Positions 1-63,700 of a stretch of 63,700 nucleotides of DNA are shown piece by piece; the stretch's first letter is position 1; each line of letters starts with the position of its first letter. The notes under the pieces were generated by a model. That model had not been told where the DNA came from and did not search any database. It saw only the letters and a program-made list of their open reading frames with translations. A program made the position numbers and the translations under genes. Source of the DNA: a virus; IMG/VR virus record IMGVR_UViG_3300029789_000007; one strand, given 5' to 3'.

Positions 1-123
1 CAAGACTACATATGAGCTGATAAACAAAAAATATGAGGTTTTGCTACTTGAAGCTCAAAACAAAATAGTTGACAGCTATTTTCAGTACATAGAGAAAAAG
101 CGTGAGCCTAAAGACCGATTTTA
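1..123. repeat. Terminal overlap identical to 63578-63700 (circular closure of the contig)
   Basis: Both ends read caagactacatatgagctgataaac...cctaaagaccgatttta in the same orientation; no mismatch seen. Confidence 0.95.
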
Positions 124-2711: not shown

Positions 2712-2927
2712 ATGAATAATCAGAATATTGTACCAACAGGAAAACGAAGTGTAATGTGCCCTCGTTGCGGAAAGCTATTAACGTGGGTAAATAAAAGCGA
2801 TAAGAAGCACCACAAAGTAATGTGTACGCACTGCCGTAAATGGATATGGTTTCGGGCTGGCACACAAGAATTTCAGATAAAAGAGGTTCCACAGAGAACT
2901 TCTGCAAGTGGCATGAGGTTTTATTGA
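2712..2927 (+). CDS. Small Com-like / cysteine-rich zinc-ribbon protein
   Basis: CPRCG...CTHCRK four-Cys ribbon, 71 aa, stop overlaps portal start (TGATG). Confidence 0.4.
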   Translation: MNNQNIVPTGKRSVMCPRCGKLLTWVNKSDKKHHKVMCTHCRKWIWFRAGTQEFQIKEVPQRTSASGMRFY

Positions 2928-21241: not shown

Positions 21242-21374
21242 GTGCCTATCATTCATGGGATAAAATGAATGCAGACTAAATTCCGTACCCCTTGGTAAAA
21301 ATTAACTCGATGCAAGCTACTGCTAGTAGTAGGATATGGTCGAACGTGGTAGAGAGGATAGGAAGAGAATACGT

Positions 21375-22520
21375 ATGAGAACATACAGAAATCTATATGC
21401 TGAATTTATTTCAGACGAAAATATAATACTTGCAATTAAGAATTTCTCTAAGGGTAAAAAGAGAAGAAACAAGGTTAGGAAAATTTTAGCAGACCTTGAT
21501 ACATACATACCCAAAATTAGAGAATATGCGATTAACTTCACACCTTTTGAGCATAAGCCCAAAGAAATATATGACGGAATATCACGAAAGAAACGTAAGA
21601 TAGTAATACCGACAGTTATGGAGTCAATAGTACATCACATGATAGTAAACGTGCTTAAGCCCATGTTTAACAAGGGAATGTATGAGCATAGTTATGGCTC
21701 GGTTCCTAAGCGTGGCGGTGCGTATGGCAAGAAATGTATATGCAAATGGATAAGGCAAGGCGGTAAGACCATTAAATATTGTTATAAGCTTGATGTGAAG
21801 CAATTTTACGCTAGTATTCCACAGGATAAATTAATTGAAAAGCTTAAATCTAAAATCAAAGATTTTAAATTCATGCGGATTGTTGAAAATGTTATATACT
21901 GCGTGCCGAATGGCTTACCACTTGGCTTTTATACCTCTGTATGGTTTGCTAACTGGTATTTAAGTGAGCTTGACCATGAAATCAAATCACTCGGTATCGA
22001 ACTGAAATATGCACGCTATGTTGACGATATGGCTATATTTTGTGCAAGCAAAAAGAAATTGCACCAGGTAAAAGCCGTGATTGACAACAGGCTTGCAGAA
22101 TTAGGGCTGATAGTCAAGGTGAACTGGCAGATATTTCATTTTCACTATTTGCCCCGAAATCCATATGTCGGCAAGAATGGAAAGTCAGCAACATATGGAA
22201 GAGCGCTTGATTTCATGGGATATAAATTCTATAGGAATAGAACCACCTTAAGAAAAACGATCCTTAAGAAAATAAGAGCTAAGGCAGTTAGAATATGGCA
22301 AAAAACAAAGGTTACAATATTTGACTCAAAACAAATGGTTTCTGCTCTTGCGTGGATTAAAAATTGCGATATTTACGATTATTACAGGGAACATATTAAA
22401 CCATTTATAGATTTCGGAAAACTAAAACACAAAATTTCAACAGTAGACAGAAAGGCAAGGTGTATTGAATATGACAGAATACAAGCTCGTAGAGAGTATG
22501 CAATCGGACAAGCCGCTTGA
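21375..22520 (+). CDS. DGR reverse transcriptase
   Basis: LDVKQFYASI, GLPLGFYTSVWFANWYL and YVDDMAIF RT motifs; 133 nt downstream of TR; start set at ATG 21375 (MRTYRNLYAEFISDENI). Confidence 0.9.
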   Translation: MRTYRNLYAEFISDENIILAIKNFSKGKKRRNKVRKILADLDTYIPKIREYAINFTPFEHKPKEIYDGISRKKRKIVIPTVMESIVHHMIVNVLKPMFNKGMYEHSYGSVPKRGGAYGKKCICKWIRQGGKTIKYCYKLDVKQFYASIPQDKLIEKLKSKIKDFKFMRIVENVIYCVPNGLPLGFYTSVWFANWYLSELDHEIKSLGIELKYARYVDDMAIFCASKKKLHQVKAVIDNRLAELGLIVKVNWQIFHFHYLPRNPYVGKNGKSATYGRALDFMGYKFYRNRTTLRKTILKKIRAKAVRIWQKTKVTIFDSKQMVSALAWIKNCDIYDYYREHIKPFIDFGKLKHKISTVDRKARCIEYDRIQARREYAIGQAA

Positions 22521-24788: not shown

Positions 24789-25347
24789 GATTTCTCAACA
24801 TTTGGGGTTGACAAATAAGACTTCCTAATGTAGAATGAAAAAGAAGTTAGGAAATCTCAACTCAATAAAAAATAAAATTGAGAAAATAATATTATGTTTC
24901 TGGACAATTCATAGTATACACGATTTTCTAATTTTTATCAAGACTTAGTTAGGATTTTTGAACTAAAAACAAAAGCTGCTAGTGTACTACCACCAACAGC
25001 CGTTGCCTTATTTTTTACACCACATACATTTTGCAGTCTTTCGACGCACTGTGTAGTACCAATGCTTCTTTAAATGTTCCGTCACTTATGCAGTTTAAGT
25101 TCAGCAGTCTAATTGCCATTAGCTGACGGATTGAGAGGAGTATCTAGCGTAGCACGGCATATTATCGGACATGCCAACCATGATTTTTTATCGAGCTTTA
25201 CTGCCCAAAATGCGCTACATCGATTGCTACATTTTAAATGCGACCTCGCAAATATGGAACAGGCAAAATCAAAATTGCTTTCAAGGCTTTTACCTCCTAG
25301 CGTATTTTGCCTAATATGACATTTTTATTGTAACGGATTTCCTAACT
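24789..25347. repeat. Operator-like repeats in the switch region
   Basis: AGTTAGGAAAT-type: 24845-24856, 24947-24957, inverted 25336-25347, partial 24820-24828. TTTCTCAA-type: near 24791 and 24853, inverted near 24878. Confidence 0.45.
24808..24836 (+). promoter_or_regulatory. Sigma-70-type promoter TTGACA-17-TAGAAT (rightward early promoter)
   Basis: ttgaca 24808-24813, 17-nt spacer, tagaat 24831-24836. Confidence 0.6.
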
Positions 25348-43383: not shown

Positions 43384-44571
43384 ATGGGAAAGGATTTGAG
43401 AGGAAAAGAGCTGGGAGTCGGAATAACCCAGCGCAAGGACGGACTTTATCAGGGCAGATATAAAGATAGGTTCGGCAAGAGCAAGACAATTTACAACAGC
43501 AAGTTGTCAGAACTGCGGAAAGAACTCAGTAAAGCAGTGACCGACAATCAACAATTCGCAAGTGTTAGAGACAGCATTACCCTCGATGCGTGGTTTGACA
43601 GGTGGATGAATGTATACAAGAAAAAGAGAGTGCGCCCCAATACCATTAGGGAGTACACGCATATATATAGGAAGAACATTTCACCATACTTAGGAAACCA
43701 TGAAATAACATCTATTCGCAAGTCAGATGTGCAGTTACTTATCGACAAAGCTTCTGACGATAACTATAAGTATGAGAGACAGAGCAAAATCAAGGTTATT
43801 TTAAATGACATGTTCAGTAGAGCTATGGAAGATGACCTGATGATTAAGAATCCGGCGAAAGGTGTAAAGTTGAGAGCAGACAAGGAAGTTAATGCTTTTG
43901 CATTGACAGTAGAGCAGCAGAACGAGTTTTTTGAAGCGTGCAAGGGCACGTTTTACGACAACATGTATAATGTGGCGGTTAATACAGGCTTGCGCCCAGG
44001 AGAACTGTTTGCACTCACAATGGCAGATATACATATGGACGAGGGCTATATTGATGTTAATAAGACACTTGTGTATCAGAAATACCTTGAAGATAAAGGC
44101 AAGACATTTCATGTTGAGCCGCCAAAAACCAAGCAGAGTTACAGACACGTACCAATTAACAGTGTGTGCAAGGAATATCTGACAAAGCAATTTGAACTTA
44201 AAAAGATAGTTTCGGCACGCAGACCCAAGGAGCAAAACGAATATTTGTTTGTTACAAGGTTCAACACACCGATTAATTCGGTTATATACAGCGACTCTAT
44301 ACGTTCAGTTGTAAGACGGATAAATGACACAAAGAGCAGTGACAATGAATTTCCATTTTTTAGCGGTCACACATTCAGACATACGTTTGCGACAAGATGT
44401 TTTGAGTCAGGGATAGAGCCGAAAGTCGTTCAATCATATTTGGGCCATGCAACACTGAAAATGACAATGGACTTGTATACACATGTTACACCTGAAAAAT
44501 CGTTTGCTGACATTGAAAAAATCGTTGGCACCGGCAACAAAATCATAGAATATAGAAGAAAATGTGTGTAG
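43384..44571 (+). CDS. int: Tyrosine integrase with Tn916-Int-type N-terminal arm-binding domain
   Basis: GITQRKDGLYQGRYKDRFGKSKTIYNSKLSELRKEL (arm-binding type); C-terminal HTFRHTFATR...LGHATLKMTMDLYTHV catalytic region. Confidence 0.9.
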   Translation: MGKDLRGKELGVGITQRKDGLYQGRYKDRFGKSKTIYNSKLSELRKELSKAVTDNQQFASVRDSITLDAWFDRWMNVYKKKRVRPNTIREYTHIYRKNISPYLGNHEITSIRKSDVQLLIDKASDDNYKYERQSKIKVILNDMFSRAMEDDLMIKNPAKGVKLRADKEVNAFALTVEQQNEFFEACKGTFYDNMYNVAVNTGLRPGELFALTMADIHMDEGYIDVNKTLVYQKYLEDKGKTFHVEPPKTKQSYRHVPINSVCKEYLTKQFELKKIVSARRPKEQNEYLFVTRFNTPINSVIYSDSIRSVVRRINDTKSSDNEFPFFSGHTFRHTFATRCFESGIEPKVVQSYLGHATLKMTMDLYTHVTPEKSFADIEKIVGTGNKIIEYRRKCV

Positions 44572-49633: not shown

Positions 49634-49843
49634 ATGTTTATGTCACCAGCAGGCAGACCTAAAGTTGGCAATCCGAAATCAAGCAGATTTAGTATCAGAC
49701 TTGATGAGGAAACAGAAAGAAAGCTGAAAGCCTATTGTGAACAGCACAATTTTACAAAAGGTGAAGCCATCAGAAGAGGAATACATTTACTTTTAGATAA
49801 AACGGAGGCTATTCATGAAAAGACAAAAAATAGGAACTTTTAA
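49634..49843 (+). CDS. Ribbon-helix-helix regulator B
   Basis: MSPAGRPKVGNPKSSRFSIRLDEETERKLKAYCEQHNFTKGEAIRRGIHLL. Confidence 0.6.
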   Translation: MFMSPAGRPKVGNPKSSRFSIRLDEETERKLKAYCEQHNFTKGEAIRRGIHLLLDKTEAIHEKTKNRNF

Positions 49844-50039
49844 CAACCTTAAAAATGGAGATTTGATAATCAGCCCCATTGATAATGAGGTCACTCAATA
49901 TTATATAGATAAAGACGGAATAAAGTATTTATCTAGCAAGAACTCATTGTTTGGCATATTTCAATTTGATGCCGAAGATTTTTATTTTTATAATGGGGAA
50001 AAGAAATGTGGAGAAATAGATAAACACTATTTTCTCTAG
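49815..50039 (+). CDS. Hypothetical small protein
   Basis: GGAGG RBS; ORF track. Confidence 0.45.
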   Translation: MKRQKIGTFNNLKNGDLIISPIDNEVTQYYIDKDGIKYLSSKNSLFGIFQFDAEDFYFYNGEKKCGEIDKHYFL

Positions 50040-50042
50040 TAA

Positions 50043-50076
50043 AAAGCCACTAGCTGATATTCGGTTAGTGGCTTTT
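50043..50076 (+). terminator. Intrinsic terminator
   Basis: aaagccacta...tagtggcttt. Confidence 0.6.
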
Positions 50077-50101
50077 GCTTTATTCAGAAAGGAGTATACA
50101 G

Positions 50102-50425
50102 GTGTTTATTAATGTTAATGATATATTGTGGCACATACAATTTAAAAAGCCCACATCAAGCGAATTAAGGCGGTCTGACGGCACTATAAGTTTAGGAGTA
50201 ACCGACAACACAACCAAGACAGTAACGATAGCTGATAATGTGTCTGATTACATGGCCGACAAGATACTATGCCACGAGCTGGTGCATGTGTACTCATTCT
50301 CATACGGCTGTGACATTGACATAGAGACAGAAGAAATAATCGCAGACTTTATGAGCTTGTACGGACGGAATATTGTATACACGGCTGACAAAATATTTAA
50401 TTTATTGGAGCAAAAATATGGATAA
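50102..50425 (+). CDS. Small HExxH metalloprotease-like protein (ImmA/IrrE- or SprT-like)
   Basis: ILCHELVHVYSF motif; GTG start 8 nt after AAGGAG. Confidence 0.45.
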   Translation: MFINVNDILWHIQFKKPTSSELRRSDGTISLGVTDNTTKTVTIADNVSDYMADKILCHELVHVYSFSYGCDIDIETEEIIADFMSLYGRNIVYTADKIFNLLEQKYG

Positions 50426-50564
50426 AATAGACAGACTATTAGAATACATACACCGGACTAATCCGGAAATGACACGGCAGAAATTGATTGAAAAACTAGG
50501 AGAGAGCGACTACAGTGCCAAGAGTATTTATTTTTTGACGATTCAAAATTCAAAAAAATCCTAA
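50418..50564 (+). CDS. Hypothetical 48-aa protein
   Basis: MDKIDRLLEYIHRTNPEMTRQKLIEKLGE...; GGAG RBS; overlaps upstream stop. Confidence 0.35.
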   Translation: MDKIDRLLEYIHRTNPEMTRQKLIEKLGESDYSAKSIYFLTIQNSKKS

Positions 50565-50629
50565 AATATTTTGATACCCCCTACCTTTTGAGCTTTTTAA
50601 TTTCAAAAATCCGTTCGCAAAATTTTACA

Positions 50630-50883
50630 AAAACTTGCCGAGAACTTGCAAAGAACTCGCACCACACTTTAATCGAGTGAAGTTTTCTGAAAATTCAAGC
50701 AATTTCCATGAGTTGGTGTGCCTGACTTGTAACAACTCGCACCCGGCACAGCTTGACGGCTTAAGGCTCTACAACTATATCGCAAAGCGTTGTAAACGGC
50801 TTGTTTTACGGCTTATTTTAGCGTGCTTGATAAAATCCACGCTAACACGTTTAAAAGCCCTTAAAGCGTCAAATACACGGCTT
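50630..50883. repeat. Iteron-like short direct repeats in non-coding DNA
   Basis: ACGGCTT at 50756, 50796, 50808 and 50877; (A/G)AACT(T/C)GC at about 50630, 50643, 50654 and 50731; hairpin agcgtg...cacgct 50820-50843. Confidence 0.45.
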
Positions 50884-51028
50884 TAAAATGTATATATCAT
50901 AAAATCATAGAATATTTTTATTAATTTGTCAATGTACTACACCCGGACTTATAGCCGGACAACTCGCGACAGTTCCAACGGCTGCACGCTTGATTTTTTG
51001 GCACAACAAAAAGGGATACAGAATATCC

Positions 51029-51283
51029 CTAATAATAACGTGTGATATATTTTCCGGCTTGATAGTCGCAAAACAATGTGACCGGGTGAACGTGTGCACG
51101 CTTTTCAACAACTTGCAACCATTCACCGGACCTTTGAACTGTTATTTTTAACTCGTGTGATTCCATCCATTCTATACAATCGTACTTGATATAATCAAAG
51201 TCACTTATTTTTGGCATCTCATAGCCTAGCGCCTTGGCTCGCTTATATATTTCCTTTTTTCCTAGATATTCATAATTAGACAT
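51029..51283 (-). CDS. Hypothetical small protein
   Basis: ORF track; leftward island. Confidence 0.45.
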   Translation of the reverse strand: MSNYEYLGKKEIYKRAKALGYEMPKISDFDYIKYDCIEWMESHELKITVQRSGEWLQVVEKRAHVHPVTLFCDYQAGKYITRYY

Positions 51284-51293
51284 AATACACCCC

Positions 51294-51566
51294 CTATCTA
51301 TAACAAGCCTTAATTATTGGGCTTATATAGTTTTTATGGTTTAGGTAGTTATCAAAAGCCGTCCGGCGGTATTCCTTGCCACTAATAAGCACAGTAACAT
51401 CGTCACACGTGCCCGACTCTGCGACAGCTCTGAAAATATCTGTTATCGCTTTACGTGTGGCGCGTTCGCTTGCTTGATATTCCGGCGCGCTCTTGTATTT
51501 GCCGTTGTAGCGCGCTTTTATTTCACACTCTACCGCGTCAAGCGTAGTTAGTTCGTTATCGTTCAT
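51294..51566 (-). CDS. Hypothetical small protein
   Basis: ORF track; leftward island. Confidence 0.45.
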   Translation of the reverse strand: MNDNELTTLDAVECEIKARYNGKYKSAPEYQASERATRKAITDIFRAVAESGTCDDVTVLISGKEYRRTAFDNYLNHKNYISPIIKACYR

Positions 51567-51878
51567 CCATCAACCCTCTTTTCTATTCGTGCGTGGTTTA
51601 TAGGTTACTTTTTGACCTTTTCGCGGTCTGTCGTGCGTTAATCTGTTTTTATAGGTGTAAAATAACGCAAATCACCTATAAAGGGCGCACAATTGTTTTT
51701 CAGGCGTTGCACCTCTTGAGCCTGATATAAATATAAAGGCATTTATAAGACCTCTTGGCGCGATTATTTACCGGACGCGCGGACGGAGTGCAATATATAC
51801 AGTTGTAAAGCCGTATAAAAGCACCTATGAAAAATATTGAATTGATTAATACAAGGCCTGAAAAGCCTTATATATAAA

Positions 51879-51937
51879 GCTAATAGCCGGAATCGAACCG
51901 GCTAGAATACACCATGTTAATTTGTATCGCTATTAGC
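51879..51937 (-). ncRNA. 59-nt tRNA-like minihelix (acceptor stem plus T-arm plus one hairpin, no D-arm)
   Basis: - strand reads GCTAATA-GC-GATACA/AATTAACATGG/TGTATT-CTA-GCCGG/TTCGATT/CCGGC-TATTAGC. Confidence 0.4.
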
Positions 51938-51962
51938 TTGCGAATTATTCCAATATCATCCC

Positions 51963-52157
51963 TTATTGTTCAATGATTTCAAAGCATTTTTGTATCTCTT
52001 CTAGGCTGTGACAGCATTCCCCACCGGGATAACGATATATAGCCATATAATCACCACCACATAGGGGTTGCATATCTTTCAAATATGCTCTATATCCTCC
52101 ATTACCTTTTATAATTTTGGGATATCCGTCTTTTATCATTTTCTCAATTCTTGTCAT
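51963..52157 (-). CDS. Hypothetical small protein
   Basis: ORF track. Confidence 0.45.
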   Translation of the reverse strand: MTRIEKMIKDGYPKIIKGNGGYRAYLKDMQPLCGGDYMAIYRYPGGECCHSLEEIQKCFEIIEQ

Positions 52158-52251
52158 TTTCTTATTTCTCCTAATTAAATAAAAATTAAGTCGATAGTAT
52201 CAGTTGAGTTATGCGACTTTTTGTTGAAATATGTAACTTACTAATTGCAAT

Positions 52252-52344
52252 TTAATAAAAAAATAAAAATAAACCACCATACCCAATAACAAGGCATGAC
52301 ACAAAAAGCCCGAAAGCCTTTAAAAGTTCTTTTAAATCGTCCAT
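52252..52344 (-). CDS. 30-aa hydrophobic peptide
   Basis: Own translation MDDLKELLKAFGLFVSCLVIGYGGLFLFFY; GGGGGC RBS-like element upstream. Confidence 0.3.
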   Translation of the reverse strand: MDDLKELLKAFGLFVSCLVIGYGGLFLFFY

Positions 52345-52354
52345 AGTTTGCCCC

Positions 52355-52615
52355 CTAACAATAACAAAAATCACCTTGTAACCCGGTTGTAATAACCATT
52401 TTCCCATCCTTACGGCGGTAAACTACACCACAACCGCCATCACTTAAAGACCATACAAGCCAGCCGGCCGGAGTTATTTTTTTATGCTTCTTATAATCAT
52501 AAAAAGCATAATGCGGTTTTATTCCGCTTTTTTCCTGTTCAAGTGCATTGTTTATAATTTCATCGTCCGTTAATAACAACGCTTTTCCGTTTTTCTGTCG
52601 TCCACAATATCTCAT
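52355..52615 (-). CDS. Hypothetical small protein
   Basis: ORF track. Confidence 0.45.
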   Translation of the reverse strand: MRYCGRQKNGKALLLTDDEIINNALEQEKSGIKPHYAFYDYKKHKKITPAGWLVWSLSDGGCGVVYRRKDGKMVITTGLQGDFCYC

Positions 52616-52670
52616 ATATTTACACCTCTTTAATATAAAGCCGGTGAACTTGCACCGGCTTAAATGCTAA

Positions 52671-53024
52671 TTACTCGTTGTCATCGTATTTCCAACTTGC
52701 TGGAACTCCGTTCCAAGGTGTGCCAAAATGTGTTACACCTAAAATATAAAGGTCTAACGGCTCACAATAATAAACGAGTTCGTTAGTATATTCGCTCAAT
52801 CTTTCGGCGTCGCTGTCATTGATAATAAAATACTGAAATACCTCTAAGTAACAATCATCCTCTTCGTCGTAGTCGGTACCACAATAAATATCAAAATCAA
52901 AACCTTTTGAAATTAAAGCTGGCATGATGTCATTGTTTAATACTAAATCGTCACAACAAAAATCAATCATTGCTCTGTAGTCTTTTCTTGTCTCTTTTAA
53001 TGTCTTTAATACTTCTTTGCTCAT
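52671..53024 (-). CDS. Strongly acidic 117-aa protein (DNA-mimic candidate)
   Basis: About 26 Asp/Glu against 9 Lys/Arg by eye; first gene after the AT-rich divergent promoter region. Confidence 0.45.
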   Translation of the reverse strand: MSKEVLKTLKETRKDYRAMIDFCCDDLVLNNDIMPALISKGFDFDIYCGTDYDEEDDCYLEVFQYFIINDSDAERLSEYTNELVYYCEPLDLYILGVTHFGTPWNGVPASWKYDDNE

Positions 53025-53417
53025 AGTTTACACCTTTTTCCACGTATGTTATAATATACGCGCCTTTCAATTATTATTTTGTTTGGTGCCTGTCGTTTTG
53101 TTGGAAGCTCTGCGACAGGCTTTTTTATTTTGTTCCTTGCCTTTCGACTTGACTATACATTATCATATTATATTAGTAATGTCAATACATAATTGCAAAA
53201 ATATTGCAAAAATATTTATGCTACTAATTAGAATAATATTTATATTCATAATTTCAAAATTATATATAATAAGTAATAAAACAATAATTGCAATAATACA
53301 TGTAATTAATATTGACATAGTAATTTAATTGTTATATATTTATGTATAGCAATATTATTTATAGTATTATTGCCAGTGAATATTGATATTATTAATTTAT
53401 ATAATGAGGTGTGAAAA

Positions 53418-53633
53418 ATGGATGAAAAGAAAATGATTGAAAACTATAAAAGTAGAGTAAAGAGACAGAATGAAAAAGCAAAAGAGAACTATGACAGAAT
53501 AAGCGTTATGCTGCCAAAAGGCACAAAAGACCGAATACAGGCGCAAGGGCTTACAATTAACGGCTTTGTAAATCAATTAGTGCTGGATAAGCTGGACGAG
53601 CTGGAAAACAATAACAATGAGTGTCCATTCTAA
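53418..53633 (+). CDS. Ribbon-helix-helix (Arc/MetJ-type) protein C
   Basis: RISVMLPKGTKDRIQAQGLTINGFVNQLVLDKL. Confidence 0.5.
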   Translation: MDEKKMIENYKSRVKRQNEKAKENYDRISVMLPKGTKDRIQAQGLTINGFVNQLVLDKLDELENNNNECPF

Positions 53634-53885
53634 AATTTAAAGTCGGTTTTTATGGCCGGCTTTTTATTTTATATATAATTAATATATATGTATGTGATAT
53701 GGTATATATTAATCAATACAGTTGTTGTTATATATCCAATAGCTCTATGTATTGACAAAACAAGTATATTTGATTATTATTATTTTAATTAAATTAATAA
53801 GCGAATGCCGGCTAGCTCGTATTACTTGGAATTGTTCCAGGTGGTGCGGGCTTTTTTATTTTGGCTTTTTGGGGGATGTGCTGCA

Positions 53886-54928: not shown

Positions 54929-55378
54929 ATGAAATTAACAGGATTTGAAACCAACAAAATTAATTCCGATATGGTAAATCACCCTAGCCACTATAACTTG
55001 CCTAATCGTAAAGAGTGCATTGATGAAATGATTGACATTTACGGGCTTAAGGATGTGGCTAAATGGTGTGAAATTACTGCATACAAGTATAAATATCGTG
55101 CCGGACATAAAGGCTCTGTAACTGAGGATATGAGTAAGGCTGCATGGTACACAATTAAGGCTCATGAGCTTAAATCTAAGCGCAAATGGAAGATTTTCGA
55201 CAAGATTGTTTATAAATTCATGCCAATGTTTCTTAAGGGCCTGTATACATGGATAATTTTATTTTGTATGTTTTACGGAATACTCTTTTCTGACCGATGC
55301 TCAATGGTAGTCTCAATAGTGTTTTTAGTTCTTGCGTGCATAGCTGAGGCAGTATTGAAAGAAAATAAAGACGATTAG
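54929..55378 (+). CDS. DUF3310-family protein with C-terminal TM segments
   Basis: VNHPSHYN...ECIDEM...AKWCEITAYKYKYRAGHKGSVTEDMSKAAWY. Confidence 0.65.
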   Translation: MKLTGFETNKINSDMVNHPSHYNLPNRKECIDEMIDIYGLKDVAKWCEITAYKYKYRAGHKGSVTEDMSKAAWYTIKAHELKSKRKWKIFDKIVYKFMPMFLKGLYTWIILFCMFYGILFSDRCSMVVSIVFLVLACIAEAVLKENKDD

Positions 55379-55395
55379 ATTTTGAGGTGTAAATC

Positions 55396-55554
55396 ATGTT
55401 TGTACTAAAAATTGCAACAACAGTATGGCTGACATTAATTGCGCTTGGAATGACAAGTGCCACATTAAACGAAAAAGAGACAGTTAGCTCGAGACTTTTC
55501 GGCGCTGCGGTAATGCTCGGTCAAATACTTGCCATAGCATTCATGTGGCAATAA
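55396..55554 (+). CDS. 52-aa membrane peptide
   Basis: Own translation MFVLKIATTVWLTLIALGMTSA...GQILAIAFMWQ; GAGGTG RBS. Confidence 0.35.
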   Translation: MFVLKIATTVWLTLIALGMTSATLNEKETVSSRLFGAAVMLGQILAIAFMWQ

Positions 55555-55558
55555 ATAT

Positions 55559-55630
55559 AGGGCATTCGCCAAGCGGTAAGGCACAGGATTTTGATTCCTG
55601 CATTCGTTGGTTCAAATCCAACATGCCCTG
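55559..55630 (+). tRNA. tRNA-Gln (anticodon TTG)
   Basis: Cloverleaf folded by hand: acceptor agggcat/atgccct, anticodon arm cagga-ttTTGat-tcctg, T-arm gttgg-ttcaaat-ccaac; D region tcgccaagcggtaaggca as in bacterial tRNA-Gln. Confidence 0.85.
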
Positions 55631-55975
55631 TTCGGGGTTTACTTGGTTCCCCGACATTGGACTTAGTAGTTCCTTTCACCCTCATAGTGGAAAGCTGTTA
55701 AGAGCCGTCACAAGGCTCGTGAGGGTTAATCGTGTATAATCCCACAATGCACGAGCGTGAAAACCAACCTGTCGTAAAGACACCTGTAATAGGCAGAGTA
55801 GACATATATACCCCCTTTAATTGTTAAACTAGGGCAACTCAAATCATATGAGTCTTAGGTGAGGTGCAATTCCTCACATGTCCTTTGCTGTAGGTTTCTT
55901 AGTTCTTTTCCTACAGCACATACAAATTTATATCTCCGGAGGGTGTAGCCACTCCTTAGACTACACCCTCATTAT
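55631..55975 (+). ncRNA. 345-nt ORF-free, hairpin-dense spacer (candidate structured RNA)
   Basis: Stems at 55632-37/55649-54, 55678-84/55720-26 (enclosing gagcc..ggctc), 55859-64/55872-77, 55888-94/55910-16 and 55939-48/55961-70. Confidence 0.35.
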
Positions 55976-56048
55976 TGGCTTGTAGTTCAAAAGGTAGAAC
56001 GCTTGACTGTTAATCAAGTAGTTGTAGGTTCGAGTCCTATCAAGCCAG
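55976..56048 (+). tRNA. tRNA-Asn (anticodon GTT)
   Basis: Acceptor tggcttg/caagcca, anticodon arm cttga-ctGTTaa-tcaag, T-arm gtagg-ttcgagt-cctat. Confidence 0.85.
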
Positions 56049-56292
56049 CTTGCAGAAATAAAATATAGCGTAAGATATGGTAGCAGCTACAAGGTGTTGC
56101 GTGATATACAAGTCGGGTAAACAGCTGGGCAACACTCTACCAATAAACAACAGAAAATCATAGCGCATGTCCCTGTCTAAAGGTGCCGACTAACTGTTGC
56201 ATAGTATCATTTCTGCAATTAAGGGTTCTTCCCTTTAATGAAATTTTTCGTATTTTTTGCTTAAACAGAGCTATTAGGTTAGTTCTGTTTAA
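56049..56292 (+). ncRNA. 244-nt ORF-free spacer closed by a 10-bp long-range helix (candidate structured RNA)
   Basis: ttgcagaaat 56050-59 pairs with atttctgcaa 56209-18; gtgttgc 56094-100 pairs with gcaacac 56129-35; terminal hairpins attaaggg..ccctttaat and aaacaga..tctgttt. Confidence 0.35.
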
Positions 56293-56365
56293 CGGCATGT
56301 AGCTCAGTGGTAGAGCAGTCGGCTATTAACTGATTTGTCGTGGGTTCGATTCCCAACCTTGCCGA
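56293..56365 (+). tRNA. Asn-type tRNA-like gene with anticodon ATT and imperfect acceptor and T stems
   Basis: tagctcagtggtagagc D-arm and cggct-ATT-aactg loop match an Asn tRNA body with G34 replaced by A; one acceptor mismatch, G-A at the T-stem end, one extra nucleotide. Confidence 0.45.
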
Positions 56366-56367
56366 TT

Positions 56368-56484
56368 ATTGATGTGTGGCGAAATGGGTAAACGCTATTG
56401 CCGTAAGATAATTCGTTGAAACCGGCAACTTAGATGACGAGAGTCGCGACAATCATGCGTGGTTCAAATCCACACCACATCAAT
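56368..56484 (+). ncRNA. 117-nt tRNA-like element (9-bp closing helix, Leu/Ser-type D-arm, T-arm, oversized centre)
   Basis: attgatgtg/cacatcaat helix; tg-gcg-aaatgggtaaa-cgc D-arm; cgtgg-ttcaaat-ccaca T-arm; ttgccg..cggcaa stem with a 19-nt loop; too long for a normal tRNA. Confidence 0.35.
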
Positions 56485-56693
56485 CATACGTCGGTTTAGT
56501 GCGAGCTGTTATATCTTGAATAGCGGTTGCGTAACGCTGATGGTCTGCAATATAGCAGTTTCGGAAAAATAAAAGAAAACACACAAAAACAAGTTGCTAG
56601 TAGGTACGCGCGACTGAAAGCAATGGGGTGAGACACTTCAAAATTCTGTAATGTGTTTTGATGAGCCTTTTGATGGAGTGTATCTTGCCTTTT

Positions 56694-56774
56694 CGGATAG
56701 TAGTTCAGTTGGAAGAACAACCACTGCAATAGCAGTAATTGAGGGAGTCACAGGTTCGAGTCCTGTCTATCCGA
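56694..56774 (+). ncRNA. 81-nt tRNA-like element whose anticodon arm is a 5-bp stem with a 4-nt loop
   Basis: Perfect acceptor cggatag/ctatccg, D-arm gttc-agttggaa-gaac, T-arm acagg-ttcgagt-cctgt, but centre is actgc-aata-gcagt plus a 13-nt extra arm. Confidence 0.4.
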
Positions 56775-56870
56775 TTACAACAAACTAGGTTAGCTACCGA
56801 AAAGCACAAGCCTTAGTGCCTGTTTGTTGTTTTGTTAATAAGGCTATTATCAGAAAGGCAGGTAATAAAC

Positions 56871-57962
56871 ATGCTATCAGAAAATGAAATCCAAACAAAA
56901 GTTAATTTCTTATCATCAGCAAGGTGCAATCACACGTTCCATAAATACATTGACATAACAGGTGACTTGATAGAGGGAACACTTTTATCAAGGATTTTAT
57001 ATTGGTTTGCGCCAAGCAAAGACAATAAGAGCAAAGTTAAGATATACAAGGACGGCGAATATTGGATTGCAAAGCAAAGAAAAGATTGGTGGGAAGAAAT
57101 ACGGATTACTGAAAGACAGTATGATAAAGCGATTAAATCGTTGGTGAAAAAGAAATTTGTAATTACAGCAAAATACAAATTCAACTCAATGCCGACTATA
57201 CATATAAGACCTAATTATGATGTTATCAACGCAGAAGTTAAAAAATGGGAAGAAAATATCAGACAAGAGGTTATAGCAGAAGATAGAGGACAGGAATTAC
57301 ATAAACAGGCAGACGGGAATGACACAAAATGTAATTCCCAAGGGAATAACACAAAGTGTAATTCGGGAATGCCACAAGGTGTAACTCTTTTAACAGGGAT
57401 TACTAATAATGATTACCTTAACACTAATTACGAAACATTAAATACTAAAAGTAATTCTCTTAACAGAGAACAGTGTAATTCTTTTTCACCTAAAGATAAA
57501 AAAGTGAAAGAGTTTAAGCCGATAAGCGAATACTCTCAAAAAGATTGGGAAGTTGCCGAAGAAAGAATGGTAAACAGAGCTGGTAAGATAGCCTATGATT
57601 GGACTAACGATGAAACACTTAAAGAAAATGTAAAGTTATTCTTTGAATACTTCCTAGGCAAGCATAGAGAATACACCGGAGAATATCACTATCCATTAAC
57701 AGACAAGGTTTTATCAAGAGTGGTAGACAGTTTAACAAAAGAAACTGAAATAGAGCGTGACGGATATACGGACAATTATTACTCAACGATAAGCAACATG
57801 AAAGATAATACAGACTACAAGATGTTAGTTGATGAATATTTCAATACAAAGTTTTCAACACAATGCGATTACAGCTTGGCACATTTTTCTTCTGAAAAAG
57901 TTTTGACCAACATTATGAACCATGTTTGTAAGAGCAGTTGGTGTGAAAGCAAAGAGTGGTAG
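56871..57962 (+). CDS. Second replication-initiator-like protein (winged-helix-like N-terminus, internal iterons)
   Basis: LLSRILYWFAPSK...EYWIAKQRKDWWEEIRITERQYDKAIKSLVKKKF; three ~24-bp repeats inside the gene. Confidence 0.35.
   Translation: MLSENEIQTKVNFLSSARCNHTFHKYIDITGDLIEGTLLSRILYWFAPSKDNKSKVKIYKDGEYWIAKQRKDWWEEIRITERQYDKAIKSLVKKKFVITAKYKFNSMPTIHIRPNYDVINAEVKKWEENIRQEVIAEDRGQELHKQADGNDTKCNSQGNNTKCNSGMPQGVTLLTGITNNDYLNTNYETLNTKSNSLNREQCNSFSPKDKKVKEFKPISEYSQKDWEVAEERMVNRAGKIAYDWTNDETLKENVKLFFEYFLGKHREYTGEYHYPLTDKVLSRVVDSLTKETEIERDGYTDNYYSTISNMKDNTDYKMLVDEYFNTKFSTQCDYSLAHFSSEKVLTNIMNHVCKSSWCESKEW
57315..57387 (+). repeat. Three tandem ~24-bp repeats GGGAAT(G/A)(A/C)CACAA(A/G)(A/G)TGTAA(T/C)TC
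   Basis: Copies start at 57315, 57342 and 57365; they encode GNDTKCNSQGNNTKCNSGMPQGV. Confidence 0.6.
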
Positions 57963-57974
57963 GAGGTATTCACT

Positions 57975-58472
57975 ATGAGTTCATATAAAGATTTACAGAC
58001 TAAAATTTTTGAGAGAGATAATTACACTTGCCAATATTGTGGAAAAAGCAGTAGAGAATACAGGGCATTGGTGATGGCACACATAAGAACGGCTTCATTG
58101 TGTGGAGATGATAGAGAAAGCAATTTAATTACATTATGCAGACATTGCTACAGCCATATTTCAAACAATGAGATTAGAGCAAAGTTTGAAACAAAGGAAA
58201 ATGCGGATTATTTTTGGGGGTTATATCACGAAAAAGTCAAAGGCTATTGCTATTACACCAACTATATCAGAAAAGTATTTACTGAAAATGGTGTAATTAT
58301 GACAAGACCGCAAATAGATAGATATGTCAATGTATACATCAAAAATGACAGCGACTTTGATAATTTTAAAACAGAGCTAAAAGAAATCGGCTGTGAAAAT
58401 ATGAAGTATAAAATGCACAGAGAGATGGCAAAACACAAACATCAAATTGAAAAGCAAAAAATGGAGGTATAA
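57975..58472 (+). CDS. HNH endonuclease
   Basis: CQYCGK...MAHIRTASLCGDDRESNLITLCRHCYSHI. Confidence 0.7.
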   Translation: MSSYKDLQTKIFERDNYTCQYCGKSSREYRALVMAHIRTASLCGDDRESNLITLCRHCYSHISNNEIRAKFETKENADYFWGLYHEKVKGYCYYTNYIRKVFTENGVIMTRPQIDRYVNVYIKNDSDFDNFKTELKEIGCENMKYKMHREMAKHKHQIEKQKMEV

Positions 58473-61602: not shown

Positions 61603-62811
61603 ATGGCTGATTTGAAAATATTTACAGAAAATATAGAACATGAAGCATTAAATCAGATATATACGCTTATAAAACAGCCGGCATTTTCGGATTGCAAGAT
61701 AAGAATTATGCCAGATGTTCATGCAGGAGCAGGGTGTGTTATCGGGTTTACTGCTGATTTAGGGGAAAAAGTAATACCGAATATTGTTGGAGTTGACATA
61801 GGCTGTGGGATGCTTACTACAAACTTGGGGAATATTGATATTGATTTTGAGAGATTAGATAACATCATTAGAGAATATGTTCCAAGTGGTAGAAGGGTTC
61901 ATGAAGAAGAAAACTCATCTGTCGCAAGCGATATTATTGAAAAATTGTATTGCAAGGAACAGTTGAAAAATATAGATTGGCTGAAAAGGAGTTGCGGCAC
62001 GTTGGGAGGCGGCAATCATTTTATCGAAGTTGATAGCGATAGCAAGAATAATAAATATCTTGTTATTCATTCGGGAAGTAGAAATGCCGGAAAGCAAGTT
62101 GCAGAAATATATCAGCAAATGGCGATTGATGATATATCGGGAAAATCGAATTTCAAACAAGATAGTGAGAAATTGATTGCTGAATACAAAAAATGTAAGA
62201 GAGAAAGAGAAATCAGCAAGGCTATCAAAGAATTAAAGCAGTCCTACGAAAAAAATACAACTAAAATCCCTAGAGAGTTATCATATCTTGTTGGAAAACA
62301 TAGAGAAATGTATTTACACGATATGAAATTATGCCAAGAGTTTGCGGAAATTAACAGAAGAGCCATTCAGAGCATTATTTGCTACTATATGGGTTGGAAA
62401 GTTACAAAAGAAACGGAGCGATTTCAAACAATTCACAACTACATTGAACACGATACAAATATTGTTCGTAAAGGCGCTATTTCTGCAAAAGCGGGGGAAA
62501 AAGTACTAATACCAATAAACATGCGTGACGGTTGCATTTTGGGAATTGGCAAGGGAAATGAAGATTGGAATTATTCAGCACCGCATGGAGCGGGACGAAC
62601 TATGAGTAGGTCAAAGGCAAAAGAAAGCATTTTACTAGAAGAGTATCAAAAAGCAATGGACGGAATATTTACAACATCTGTAAATACATCTACGATTGAT
62701 GAAAGCCCTATGGCATATAAAACAATGGATGAAATAATTGGAAATATAAAAGATACTGTTGAAATAGTTGACATTATAAAACCGATTTACAATTTCAAAG
62801 CAAACGAATAA
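61603..62811 (+). CDS. rtcB: RtcB RNA 3'-phosphate/5'-OH ligase
   Basis: IRIMPDVHAGAGCVIGF, VGVDIGCGM, GTLGGGNHFIEVD, HSGSRNAGKQVA, APHGAGR. Confidence 0.9.
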   Translation: MADLKIFTENIEHEALNQIYTLIKQPAFSDCKIRIMPDVHAGAGCVIGFTADLGEKVIPNIVGVDIGCGMLTTNLGNIDIDFERLDNIIREYVPSGRRVHEEENSSVASDIIEKLYCKEQLKNIDWLKRSCGTLGGGNHFIEVDSDSKNNKYLVIHSGSRNAGKQVAEIYQQMAIDDISGKSNFKQDSEKLIAEYKKCKREREISKAIKELKQSYEKNTTKIPRELSYLVGKHREMYLHDMKLCQEFAEINRRAIQSIICYYMGWKVTKETERFQTIHNYIEHDTNIVRKGAISAKAGEKVLIPINMRDGCILGIGKGNEDWNYSAPHGAGRTMSRSKAKESILLEEYQKAMDGIFTTSVNTSTIDESPMAYKTMDEIIGNIKDTVEIVDIIKPIYNFKANE

Positions 62812-63338: not shown

Positions 63339-63700
63339 ATGGCTAGTCAGAGCCTTATTTCCACAGTAAACGGATATGAAAACTACATAAAGGATAAAGG
63401 AAAAGACGAGCAAGTAATTAATGCCTATGTAGACGCTTGCAGTGTAGCCATAAATGGCGAGAAAGATATTGAGTATGGACTACAGCTCACTAAGAGAGCA
63501 AAAGAGCTTATAGAGGGCTTCTGCACGGCTAAAACAGGTGGTACGATTTGGGATTTGGAAAAATACGCATTCGACCACAAGACTACATATGAGCTGATAA
63601 ACAAAAAATATGAGGTTTTGCTACTTGAAGCTCAAAACAAAATAGTTGACAGCTATTTTCAGTACATAGAGAAAAAGCGTGAGCCTAAAGACCGATTTTA
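63339..63700 (+). CDS. terL: Terminase large subunit, 5' portion (continues at base 1 after removing the 123-bp overlap)
   Basis: ATG 63339; (63618-63339) is divisible by 3, so it is in frame with the 41..1501 ORF. Confidence 0.85.
   Translation, partial: MASQSLISTVNGYENYIKDKGKDEQVINAYVDACSVAINGEKDIEYGLQLTKRAKELIEGFCTAKTGGTIWDLEKYAFDHKTTYELINKKYEVLLLEAQNKIVDSYFQYIEKKREPKDRF
63578..63700. repeat. Terminal overlap identical to 1-123
   Basis: See first feature. Confidence 0.95.

What the first reader, a model, noticed from the sequence alone, without database searches (positions are those of the whole stretch)
55559..56830. A 1.27-kb ORF-free island of tRNAs, tRNA-like elements and hairpin-dense spacers
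Five T-arm signatures (GGTTCA/GA-TCC) occur on the + strand, but only two units fold as canonical tRNAs: Gln-TTG and Asn-GTT. The spacers of 345, 244 and 209 nt have no credible ORF. They are rich in stems and long-range complementarity, for example 56050-59 with 56209-18, 56094-100 with 56129-35, and five strong hairpins in 55632-55970. Large ornate RNAs of Bacillota prophages (the GOLLD and ROOL classes) are known to lie next to tRNA genes. This locus could hold one of them or an undescribed relative. I cannot assign a class by eye.
Basis: partly seen in the sequence, partly recalled or inferred. Interest (0 to 1): 0.7.

Follow-up and report, generated by a model that had tools for sequence, protein, structure and literature searches.

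The report
Phage tRNA island carrying unlisted RNAs
This gene-free stretch of a gut phage genome is an array of two ordinary tRNAs, three tRNA look-alikes that probably cannot decode, and at least three conserved folded RNAs that Rfam does not list, one of which also sits unannotated in many cultured phages of Enterococcus, Leuconostoc and relatives.

Summary
The observation largely holds. Window 55558-56870 has no conserved ORF, five T-arm units and real hairpins. The GOLLD/ROOL idea fails: Rfam gives no hit even at E<=10, and relatives shuffle the pieces independently, so this is not one large RNA.

What is there:
- Canonical tRNA-Gln(UUG) and tRNA-Asn(GUU).
- Two tRNA-scoring units with abnormal anticodon arms.
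- A 114-nt tRNA-Leu-like "frame" (56370-56483). Its anticodon and variable arms are replaced by cargo that differs among close relatives. The frame type has 41 covarying acceptor stems in IMG/VR and occurs unannotated in GenBank Firmicutes phages.
- In spacer 1, a three-way junction resembling a tRNA without an anticodon arm (55678-55726). It has strong covariation and is preceded by a hairpin plus a (U)CCUCCUUUC-like tract; the window's own copy reads GUUCCUUUC.
- In spacer 2, a pseudoknotted domain (56106-56201) that is also found inside such frames in Enterococcus phage EFDG1.
- An int-alpA terminator-like motif at the end.

Spacer 3 shows no excess structure.

Best reading: a co-transcribed tRNA/ncRNA array cut up by tRNA-processing enzymes. 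That step, and all functions, are inferred. Possible functions are translation interference or counter-defence; the phage also encodes RtcB.

The parts
55558..55631 (+). tRNA-Gln(UUG), canonical
   Evidence: ARAGORN. Rfam tRNA 63.1 bits. Present in 155 related loci.
55632..55677 (+). Trailer of tRNA-Gln: hairpin 55632-55654, small hairpin 55659-55673, then the pyrimidine tract GUUCCUUUC (55669-55677). The tract reads (U)CCUCCUUUC in most other types.
   Evidence: Sequence. The tract lies 0-7 nt before helix P1 in 24 of 30 distinct family members, and a hairpin abuts it in 21 of 30.
55678..55726 (+). R1 motif, a three-way junction. P1 = 55678-55685 with 55719-55726. Small hairpin PD = 55686-55696. 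Linker GUUAA = 55697-55701. T-arm-like hairpin P2 = 55702-55718.
   Evidence: Covariance-model hit 55666-55780, 84 bits, E 3e-20, the only copy in the window. Covariation: 9 of 11 pairs and 10 of 11 pairs. PD is supported independently of the model. The same fold appears in the thermodynamic centroid.
55727..55975 (+). Rest of spacer 1 (type I): hairpin P3 55730-55754, conserved GUGAAAACCAAC 55757-55768, C-rich CCCCC 55811-55815, hairpins 55859-55877 and about 55888-55918, and a terminal 10-bp hairpin 55940-55971.
   Evidence: 93-100% identical in 109 loci. One-sided changes keep G.U pairs on the + strand. z -3.65 for the whole spacer.
55976..56049 (+). tRNA-Asn(GUU), canonical
   Evidence: ARAGORN. 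Rfam 72.2 bits.
56050..56218 (+). Spacer-2 RNA: 10-bp closing helix 56050-56059 with 56209-56218 around domain X. Helix 56094-56100 pairs with 56129-56135. The pseudoknot is Ha (56111-56116 with 56186-56191) crossing Hb (56148-56153 with 56194-56199).
   Evidence: R2 model hit 56106-56201, 86 bits, E 4e-13. Homologues in Enterococcus phage EFDG1 and 17 IMG/VR loci. 99.5% of pair cells are paired; Hb has 4 pairs and Ha 1 pair with compensatory changes. Alignment.
56261..56292 (+). 12-bp hairpin ending 1 nt before the next tRNA-like unit
   Evidence: Inverted repeat I3. Compensatory changes at pairs 56265-56288, 56266-56287 and 56269-56284 among 11 variants.
56293..56365 (+). tRNA-like unit 'tATT': a tRNA-Asn-derived body with anticodon loop CUAUUAA (A34)
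   Evidence: ARAGORN Asn(att). Rfam 46.4 bits. Across relatives the same body carries ATT, AAT, AAC or (rarely) GTT.
56370..56483 (+). Frame-F tRNA-like RNA (U5). Acceptor 56370-56376 with 56476-56482. tRNA-Leu-like D arm 56379-56395. About 59-nt cargo 56397-56455. 6-bp T stem and loop 56457-56475. Discriminator A at 56483.
   Evidence: Not called by ARAGORN default or by Rfam tRNA at E<=10. Called only as an 'intron-containing Leu' at relaxed settings. The frame is constant while the cargo is variable in relatives. Family covariation.
56484..56692 (+). Spacer 3: no excess structure, with an A/C-rich low-complexity stretch
   Evidence: z +0.27. 76-100% identical in about 63 loci, with indels. 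The ORF in it is not conserved.
56693..56775 (+). tRNA-like unit 'tLeuL': acceptor, D and T arms intact, but the anticodon arm is replaced by the ACUGC-AAUA-GCAGU hairpin
   Evidence: ARAGORN Leu(caa) with 2 mismatches in the anticodon stem. Rfam 45.6 bits. Relatives carry other non-anticodon arms in the same frame, including a 5-nt loop.
56778..56843 (+). int-alpA RNA motif (RF02996): outer helix followed by a U-run, immediately upstream of the replication-initiator gene (ATG at 56871)
   Evidence: 53.8 bits against a gathering score of 35.8. It is always the last element of the island in relatives and in a Lachnospiraceae MAG prophage.

Best explanation
The region is the non-coding tRNA/ncRNA array of a 63.6-kb temperate gut phage, probably of Lachnospiraceae. 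It holds two decoding tRNAs (Gln-UUG, Asn-GUU). Between and after them lie tRNA-shaped elements that keep the acceptor, D and T arms but have lost a usable anticodon arm: tATT, tLeuL, the frame-F unit with a 59-nt cargo, and the anticodon-arm-less R1 junction. The array also holds structured RNA domains: the remainder of spacer 1, and domain X in spacer 2.

Proposed mechanism. The array is transcribed as one precursor together with the upstream genes and stops at the int-alpA terminator-like motif. RNase P and RNase Z recognise every acceptor/T-arm stack, in real tRNAs and in mimics alike. They cut the precursor into tRNAs plus discrete small RNAs whose ends are protected by the hairpins that sit just before each tRNA 5' end. 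In this view the tRNA-like parts act as punctuation and as stabilising scaffolds, and the variable inserts and spacer domains are the working parts.

Function is a lower-confidence inference. These RNAs may act on the host translation apparatus or on tRNA-directed defences. The clues are a 16S-tail-like pyrimidine tract that would be exposed at a 3' end, anticodon arms and cargos that change fast between close relatives, and an RtcB RNA ligase gene 5 kb downstream.

Shown: the elements, their conservation, their covariation and their modular exchange. Inferred: co-transcription, cleavage by RNase P and RNase Z, stability and function.
For: - Inventory.
- Modular exchange across about 160 loci.
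- R1 motif: one copy in the window (84 bits) and one per related locus. 98.5% and 96.9% of pair cells are paired. 9 of 11 and 10 of 11 pairs have changes on both sides. 0 of 500 shuffles reach the observed values, and slid controls give 28-54%. The small hairpin PD, which was not in the model, also covaries (AU 24/UA 5; GU 13/CG 10/GC 3). The thermodynamic centroid gives the same junction.
- R1 lies 25-83 nt after a tRNA, mostly tRNA-Gln.
- Domain X.
- Frame F: more than 10 unrelated cargos in one frame among close relatives. 41 different acceptor stems, each matched by its 3' strand. 98.9% paired against 72.3% when shuffled, with 11 of 16 pairs changed on both sides. Both halves are found unannotated in at least 42 GenBank phages. 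In EFDG1 the unit starts 2 nt after a phage tmRNA.
- Strand: one-sided changes keep G.U pairs on the + strand, the strand of the tRNAs.
- Conservation beyond the neighbours: spacer 1 is 95-96% identical in phages whose adjacent rep protein is only 61-64% identical.
- No conserved ORF.
- There is no room for a promoter between the upstream ORF (ends 55554) and tRNA-Gln (starts 55558), and no sigma-70-like site on the + strand inside the island.
- RtcB gene at 61603-62811.
Against: - No transcript data of any kind. Co-transcription, processing sites and stability are untested.
- The R1 junction and frame F do not score as tRNA in Rfam. The P2 loop of the window copy (GUCACAA) lacks the U...A of a classic T-loop. 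So recognition by RNase P or RNase Z is a structural analogy only.
- Covariation counts for R1 and X come from model-fitted alignments. For frame F they come from units that my own finder selected for pairing. Invariance of the frame-F D arm follows from the search pattern.
- Spacer 3 and much of the 3' half of spacer 1 have no cross-type covariation.
- tATT has a normal 7-nt loop with U33 and A37 and could still decode AAU codons.
- The link to RtcB and to host defence is circumstantial.
Confidence: 0.6

Rival explanations
1. A decaying tRNA gene cluster. The odd units are tRNA pseudogenes and the spacers are neutral leftovers with chance hairpins.
For: Two units have damaged anticodon arms. 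Spacer 3 has no excess structure. The island varies in content among relatives.
Against: Spacer 1 is 93-100% conserved in 109 loci, more than the neighbouring proteins. Compensatory changes maintain P1, P2 and PD over more than 10 sequence types. Ha and Hb are maintained in domain X. The acceptor and T stems of frame F are maintained across 41 acceptor types in phages from many environments. Decay would not keep acceptor, D and T arms intact while replacing only the anticodon domain.
Confidence: 0.08
2. One large ornate RNA of the GOLLD/ROOL kind, or a new relative, spans the island with embedded tRNAs.
For: GOLLD and ROOL lie next to tRNAs in phages (PMC5737381, read). A related tRNA array does carry ROOL (L164). 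Spacer 1 is 344 nt long and highly structured.
Against: No Rfam hit at E<=10. The modules occur independently: spacer 2 is in only 14 loci, spacer 1 in 109, and spacer 3 in about 63. No long-range pairing links the spacers. The conserved cores are only about 50-100 nt.
Confidence: 0.05
3. The three atypical tRNA-shaped units are functional decoding or nuclease-evading tRNAs. Their altered anticodon loops let them escape host anticodon nucleases, and the frame-F insert is an intron removed by an unknown endonuclease and sealed by the phage RtcB.
For: Both tATT and tLeuL pass the Rfam tRNA threshold. tATT has a 7-nt loop with U33 and A37. RtcB is annotated as a tRNA-splicing ligase. ARAGORN can model the fifth unit as Leu(tag) with a 26-nt intron. 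From my own recollection of the literature, phage tRNAs with anticodon-loop changes have been proposed to evade host nucleases (van den Berg et al., eLife 2023).
Against: - The ARAGORN intron model needs a mismatched stem and relaxed scoring.
- In relatives the insert is 57-145 nt of unrelated sequence, and removing it leaves no anticodon arm at all.
- The tLeuL frame carries a tetraloop or a 5-nt loop.
- A34 anticodons (AUU, AAU, AAC) on one unchanged Asn-type body would need three different synthetases.
Confidence: 0.12
4. The features act as DNA, not RNA: a replication origin, packaging site or recombination hot spot upstream of the replication-initiator gene.
For: The island abuts the rep gene. 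The modules are exchanged by recombination at conserved tRNA-like sequences.
Against: There are no iterons or other direct repeats beyond the tRNA arms. Pairing is kept through G.U wobble on the + strand only; on the other strand, or in duplex-derived hairpins, these would be A.C mismatches. The same motifs occur in phages with other neighbouring genes.
Confidence: 0.05

Closest known systems
Stable small RNAs of the phage T4 tRNA gene cluster (species 1 and 2, RNA C and D); from my own knowledge
   Same: Non-tRNA stable RNAs encoded inside a phage tRNA operon, co-transcribed with the tRNAs and released by the tRNA-processing machinery. Their function is unknown.
   Different: No sequence relation was tested. 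The elements here include tRNA frames with replaceable cargo and a pseudoknotted domain. The hosts are Firmicutes.
RNase P-processed phage regulatory RNAs (C4 RNA of P1/P7, CI RNA of P4) and plant mitochondrial t-elements (PMC1920247, listed)
   Same: An acceptor/T-arm-like fold without a decoding function is used as a processing signal that defines RNA ends. The R1 junction (7-bp P1 stacked on a T-arm-like P2) and frame F have that shape.
   Different: Cleavage has not been shown here. R1 has its own conserved features: an invariant U.G pair, a GUUAA linker and an upstream CCUCCUUUC tract.
GOLLD (RF01998) and ROOL (RF03087) large RNAs
   Same: Same genomic niche: phage or prophage tRNA arrays. 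ROOL is present in one related array (L164).
   Different: No model match. The elements here are 50-200 nt modules, not a 600-800 nt ornate RNA.
tmRNA and YrlA (bacterial Y RNA): natural RNAs built on a partial tRNA shape
   Same: The acceptor and T-arm (plus D-like) part of a tRNA is kept and the anticodon arm is replaced by another domain.
   Different: ARAGORN calls no tmRNA and no tag reading frame in the window. The YrlA model gives only chance-level hits (E 0.2, driven by the real tRNA-Asn), and YrlA is circularly permuted relative to frame F. Whether any window ORF encodes a Ro60/TROVE protein was not tested; Pfam was run on 26 selected ORFs only.
tRNA-miRNA encoded RNAs (TMERs) of murine gammaherpesvirus 68, mascRNA/MALAT1, and the engineered 'tRNA scaffold' for RNA expression; from my own knowledge
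   Same: A tRNA-like module drives processing and stabilises an attached RNA cargo.
   Different: Those are eukaryotic or synthetic. In frame F the cargo is inserted inside the tRNA in place of the anticodon arm, as in the synthetic scaffold, not appended to it.
3'ETS-leuZ type tRNA-spacer-derived sRNAs of E. coli; from my own knowledge
   Same: A functional small RNA derived from the spacer next to a tRNA. The hairpin plus CCUCCUUUC piece between tRNA-Gln and R1 would be such a product.
   Different: No target or sponge activity is known here. The piece would be released by a tRNA-like element rather than by RNase E.

Membership tests
GOLLD RNA (Rfam) | Match to the family covariance model at or near its gathering score | tested here: not met
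   No hit in the window at gathering score, nor in 55300-57100 at E<=10 with relaxed filters.
ROOL RNA (RF03087) | Match to the 574-position covariance model (gathering score 99.1 bits) | tested here: not met
   No hit. Positive control: the same scan finds ROOL at 292 bits in L164.
tRNA (RF00005), unit 56293-56365 | Cloverleaf scoring above the gathering score | tested here: met
   46.4 bits against 29. ARAGORN Asn(att).
tRNA (RF00005), unit 56293-56365 | An anticodon of a kind used for decoding in bacteria, stable within the gene lineage | tested here: inconclusive
   The loop is CUAUUAA with A34. The same body carries ATT, AAT, AAC or GTT in relatives, and most copies have C32 and G38, which could close the loop to 5 nt. 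Decoding itself cannot be tested here.
tRNA (RF00005), unit 56693-56775 | 5-bp anticodon stem with a 7-nt loop carrying U33 | tested here: not met
   The ARAGORN drawing has 2 mismatches in the stem and G at position 33. The alternative is a perfect ACUGC-AAUA-GCAGU hairpin. Relatives have other arms in its place. The overall model score is still above threshold (45.6 bits).
tRNA (RF00005), unit 56370-56483 | Cloverleaf recognised by ARAGORN default or by the Rfam model | tested here: not met
   No call and no Rfam tRNA hit at E<=10. Only ARAGORN -i -ps90 gives a forced 'Leu(tag) with a 26-nt intron'.
Intron-containing tRNA (spliced) | Removing the insert restores a complete anticodon arm | tested here: not met
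   In all cargo types the constant parts end after the D arm and resume at the T arm, so no anticodon arm remains. The inserts are 57-145 nt with no group I intron match.
int-alpA RNA (RF02996) | Match to the covariance model above its gathering score (35.8 bits) | tested here: met
   53.8 bits, full length, at 56778-56843. 45-59 bits in relatives.
YrlA / bacterial Y RNA (RF02553) | Model match | tested here: not met
   21 bits against 69, overlapping the true tRNA-Asn.
YrlA / bacterial Y RNA (RF02553) | A neighbouring Ro60 (TROVE) gene | not tested
   Pfam was run on 26 selected window ORFs only, not on all of them.
tmRNA | tRNA-like ends plus a tag-peptide reading frame, recognised by ARAGORN or Rfam | tested here: not met
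   No tmRNA call in the window. A true phage tmRNA lies next to the homologous element in EFDG1.
RNase P/RNase Z processing signals (t-element-like tRNA mimics) | An acceptor-like helix stacked coaxially on a T-arm-like hairpin, about 12 bp in total | tested here: met
   R1: 7-bp P1 contiguous with a 4-6-bp P2 carrying a 7-nt loop. Frame F: 7-bp acceptor plus 6-bp T stem.
RNase P/RNase Z processing signals (t-element-like tRNA mimics) | Actual cleavage by RNase P or RNase Z | not testable with these tools
   Needs enzyme assays or end-mapping.

The most novel reading that the evidence does not exclude
Firmicutes phages use a dedicated tRNA-shaped frame as a natural RNA scaffold. The frame has a 7-bp acceptor, a tRNA-Leu-like D arm and a 6-bp T stem with a UGCAAAU or UUCAAAU loop. 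Interchangeable functional RNA cargos, domain X among them, are plugged into it and swapped rapidly between close relatives. That pattern is expected for weapons in a phage-host conflict, for example decoys or inhibitors of tRNA- or rRNA-directed defence nucleases. In the same array, the R1 mini-tRNA would direct RNase P to release a hairpin RNA ending in CCUCCUUUC-3'. That end copies the anti-Shine-Dalgarno tail of 16S rRNA and could titrate Shine-Dalgarno sequences or decoy factors that act on the 16S 3' end.
Probability: 0.2. Interest if true: 0.9.

Novelty: new variant of a known kind. Interest (0 to 1): 0.72.

Why it matters
Phage tRNA arrays are usually read as codon-usage helpers and annotated only for what tRNA finders call. 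This island shows that such arrays also carry conserved, covarying RNAs that are neither tRNAs nor in Rfam 15.

One of them, the tRNA-shaped frame with replaceable cargo, sits unannotated in at least 42 GenBank phage records, including Enterococcus Schiekvirus phages and phages of dairy lactic-acid bacteria. That makes genetic tests immediately possible in culturable phages such as EFDG1.

If the frames are natural scaffolds and the cargos are effectors, this would be a new layer of RNA-based phage-host interaction, and a natural counterpart of the engineered tRNA scaffold. The pyrimidine tract that matches the 16S rRNA tail suggests a directly testable link to translation initiation.

Tried and rejected
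- **GOLLD, ROOL and every other Rfam family for the spacers:** no hit.
- **YrlA:** chance-level hit only.
- **Minus-strand small ORFs.** One has a good Shine-Dalgarno site (AAAGGGGG-5 nt-ATG, 55698-55805). Rejected because a 1-nt indel and stops disrupt it in most homologues, and it is absent in the other motif types.
- **H-type pseudoknot 'P0' between CCUUUC and GGAAAG in spacer 1 (my first reading).** Largely superseded by the local hairpin PD, which covaries across types. P0 may still be an alternative conformer in type I. Unresolved.
- **Extended -10 promoter at 55743-55750 (TGTATAAT):** not called by the scan and not conserved in the other types.
- **Iterons or an origin:** none found.
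- **Intron model for the fifth unit:** rejected.
- **GenBank BLAST for the R1 motif:** only Dulem virus 39.
- **Genome-collection scan with the rep protein:** one Lachnospiraceae MAG prophage, without R1. The host assignment is therefore weak.
- **Overlap with the 10,006 phage candidate RNAs of PMC10690425:** could not be checked because no supplement is held.
- **RNAalifold on type-I spacer 1 alone:** no double-sided covariation because the copies are too similar.
Full report
**Observation.** The sequence at 55558-56870 is as described. It has five + strand T-arm signatures, spacers of 344, 243 and 209 nt, and the quoted complementary segments are exact. ARAGORN and Rfam call four tRNAs rather than two: Gln-UUG 63 bits, Asn-GUU 72 bits, 'Asn-AUU' 46 bits and 'Leu-CAA' 45.6 bits. 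The last two are atypical, however. One has an A34 anticodon. The other has two mismatches in its anticodon stem and an alternative ACUGC-AAUA-GCAGU hairpin. The fifth unit (56370-56483) is found only with ARAGORN's relaxed intron mode. None of the small ORFs has a Pfam match, and the two best candidates are broken by frameshifts or stops in most homologues. Spacer 1 folds much better than shuffled sequence (z -3.65). Spacer 2 does so marginally (z -2.1). Spacer 3 does not (z +0.27).

**Context.** The window is a circular 63,577-bp phage genome; its last 123 bases repeat its first 123. It encodes terminase, an SPP1-type portal, a capsid protein, a GH25 lysin, a reverse transcriptase with an RT-18 RNA (a probable diversity-generating retroelement), a tyrosine integrase, an HNH nuclease and RtcB. 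The island lies between a DUF3310 gene plus a 52-aa ORF and a replication-initiator gene. The only GenBank relative is Dulem virus 39, with 85% terminase identity. IMG/VR holds well over 100 related contigs. The one hit in the genome collection is a Lachnospiraceae MAG prophage.

**Not one large RNA.** Rfam finds no GOLLD, ROOL or other family in the spacers, even at E<=10. It does find int-alpA at 56778-56843 (53.8 bits), and it finds ROOL in a related array, which serves as a positive control. In about 160 related loci the modules are shuffled. tRNA-Gln plus spacer 1 occurs in 109 loci, spacer 2 in 14 and spacer 3 in about 63. Other tRNAs (Ser, Tyr, Cys) replace the ones seen here, and int-alpA is always last.

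**Spacer 1.**
- The whole 344-nt unit is 93-100% identical in 109 loci. It is 95-96% identical even where the adjacent rep protein is only 61-64% identical.
- Its core recurs in at least ten diverged sequence types.
- A covariance model of the core finds exactly one copy in the window (55666-55780, 84 bits) and one in each of 80 related loci tested, including Dulem virus. It also finds weaker copies (28-72 bits) in other phage groups.
- On 73 distinct sequences, 98.5% of pair cells are paired and 9 of 11 pairs change on both sides. On 30 distinct sequences the figures are 96.9% and 10 of 11. No shuffle in 500 reaches these values, and slid controls give 28-54%.
- A third small hairpin (PD) was not part of the model and also covaries.
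- The result is a three-way junction. A 7-bp helix P1 has an invariant U.G pair at its base. It is followed by PD, the linker GUUAA, and a hairpin P2 with a 7-nt loop (UGCAAGA or GUCACAA) that runs directly into the 3' strand of P1.
- This is the layout of a tRNA without its anticodon arm. The thermodynamic centroid gives the same fold. ARAGORN's mitochondrial mode places a tRNA-like call on it, which is weak support.
- In 24 of 30 distinct members a pyrimidine tract, (U)CCUCCUUUC, lies 0-7 nt upstream of P1. In 21 of 30 a hairpin abuts the tract. From my own knowledge, this tract matches the 3' tail of Firmicutes 16S rRNA.
- The element lies 25-83 nt after a tRNA, usually tRNA-Gln.
- Within type I, changes are one-sided but keep pairing through G.U on the + strand.

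**Spacer 2.**
- Its centre (56106-56201) is homologous to the cargo of about 200-nt tRNA-framed RNAs in IMG/VR contigs and in Enterococcus phage EFDG1.
- A model built on six sequences scores the window copy at 86 bits (E 4e-13), EFDG1 at 100 bits, and 17 IMG/VR loci at 84-117 bits.
- Two crossing helices form a pseudoknot: Ha (AGUCGG with CCGACU) and Hb (CAACAG with CUGUUG). 99.5% of cells are paired. Four Hb pairs and one Ha pair (UA 8, GC 4, CG 2) change on both sides.
- The 12-bp hairpin at 56261-56292 has three compensatory pairs among only 11 variants.

**The fifth unit.**
- Its ends are a tRNA-Leu-like acceptor and D arm (UGAUGUG-UG-GCGAAAUGGGUAAACGC) and a 6-bp T stem, loop and acceptor strand.
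- Among close relatives the same frame carries more than ten unrelated inserts, giving total lengths of 109-201 nt.
ARAGORN calls only 5 of these sites a tRNA.
- In 179 of 199 instances a T arm and a matching acceptor 3' strand follow within 800 nt. I estimate the chance expectation at about 1.5e-4 per site. There are 41 different acceptor stems and unit lengths of 82-205 nt, of which only three are of normal tRNA size.
- On 44 distinct frames, 98.9% of cells are paired against 72.3% when shuffled, and 11 of 16 pairs change on both sides. One caveat applies: my finder required pairing, and the D arm is fixed by the search pattern.
- Most members have the T loop UGCAAAU rather than UUCAAAU.
- Both halves of the frame occur within 200 nt in at least 42 GenBank phage records (Enterococcus, Leuconostoc, Lactobacillus, Weissella, Brochothrix among those listed), almost always with no annotated feature. 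In EFDG1 the unit begins 2 nt after a phage tmRNA, inside a tRNA array.
- Several cargo classes are themselves conserved across different frames.

**The two low-scoring 'tRNAs'.**
- The 56293-56365 body is a tRNA-Asn derivative. Across relatives its anticodon is ATT (most copies), AAT, AAC or, rarely, the ancestral GTT.
- The 56693-56775 frame carries a tetraloop hairpin here. Elsewhere it carries a 5-nt loop or other arms.
- Together with frame F and R1 this gives a consistent pattern: the parts of the tRNA shape that processing enzymes read are kept, and the decoding arm is free to change or be replaced.

**Mechanism.**
- Shown: the elements, their conservation, their covariation, their strand and their modular exchange.
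- Inferred: the array is transcribed with the upstream genes. There is a 3-nt gap before tRNA-Gln and no + strand promoter match. Transcription ends at the int-alpA helix and its U-run. RNase P and RNase Z cut at every real or mimic acceptor/T stack. Hairpins just upstream of each tRNA 5' end would protect the new 3' ends.
- One product would be the tRNA-Gln trailer, a hairpin RNA ending in the CCUUUC tract.
- I consider action on translation or on tRNA/rRNA-directed host defence the most likely function. The reasons are the 16S-like tract, the hypervariable cargos and anticodon arms, and the RtcB gene. This is conjecture.

**Comparison and novelty.** The closest known things are:
- the stable RNAs of the T4 tRNA cluster;
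- RNase P-processed phage RNAs (C4, CI) and plant t-elements;
- tmRNA and YrlA as partial tRNA shapes;
- viral tRNA-linked RNAs and the engineered tRNA scaffold.

None is a family match. The GOLLD, ROOL, YrlA, tmRNA and intron tests failed, and int-alpA passed. I could not check the 2023 catalogue of 10,006 phage candidate RNAs (PMC10690425), which may already list some of these under anonymous numbers. I therefore rate this a new variant of a known kind rather than categorically new.

Noticed in passing
window 1-123 and 63578-63700: The two ends are 100% identical, so the window is a circularly closed phage genome of 63,577 bp.
   Followed up: yes
window 24970-25130 (-): Full-length FuFi-1 RNA (RF02986), 123.7 bits. 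This is a motif of unknown function.
   Followed up: no
window 21286-22520 (+): An RT-18 RNA motif (43.7 bits) overlaps the start of a reverse-transcriptase ORF (RVT_1) downstream of large tail-fibre-size ORFs. Probably a diversity-generating retroelement.
   Followed up: partly
window 61603-62811, 57975-58472 and 43384-44571: RtcB RNA ligase (Pfam 2e-57), an HNH endonuclease and a tyrosine integrase. RtcB next to a tRNA/tRNA-mimic array suggests an RNA-repair theme.
   Followed up: partly
L282 (Enterococcus phage EFDG1, KP339049) 1300-1700: A phage tmRNA (RF00023, 55.5 bits) ends at 1495. The unannotated tRNA-framed X RNA starts 2 nt later, at about 1494-1700.
   Followed up: partly
L022:26-94(-), L105:1702-1771(-), L188:8558-8625(+), L247:1292-1362(+), L164:3293-3916(+), L001:3777-3860(+), L191:1772-2082(+): Loci holding the related tRNA arrays also carry Hammerhead type II and Pistol ribozymes, ROOL, RAGATH-27 and a permuted tmRNA.
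   Followed up: no
L176, L177, L229, L247 (cargo 'Y'); L164, L271 (cargo 'Z'): Further cargo classes are conserved across frames with different acceptor stems. Class Y, for example, shares AGCAGGAGGA...CAUUAAAC...GAAAAA. This points to several more RNA families inside the same scaffold.
   Followed up: no
relatives of window 56293-56365 (e.g. L003:3197-3269, L012:3194-3265): One tRNA-Asn-type body carries anticodons ATT, AAT, AAC or GTT in different phages. Every derived copy has A34, which is unusual for bacterial systems.
   Followed up: partly
L161 (Lachnospiraceae MAG CAJTPS010000002) 2880-3229: A prophage with a 45%-identical rep protein has tRNA-Tyr, tRNA-Cys and an int-alpA motif in the same position, but no R1 motif. 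This is the only host clue.
   Followed up: partly
window 56836-56856 and 56863-56883: A 21-nt imperfect direct repeat (TAATAAGGCTATTATCAGAAA / TAATAAACATGCTATCAGAAA) brackets the start of the replication-initiator gene.
   Followed up: no
window 49700-53800: About 4 kb with only small ORFs (45-117 aa) on both strands and lower G+C (0.347 against 0.383 for the whole window). It looks like an early or lysogeny region of small genes.
   Followed up: no
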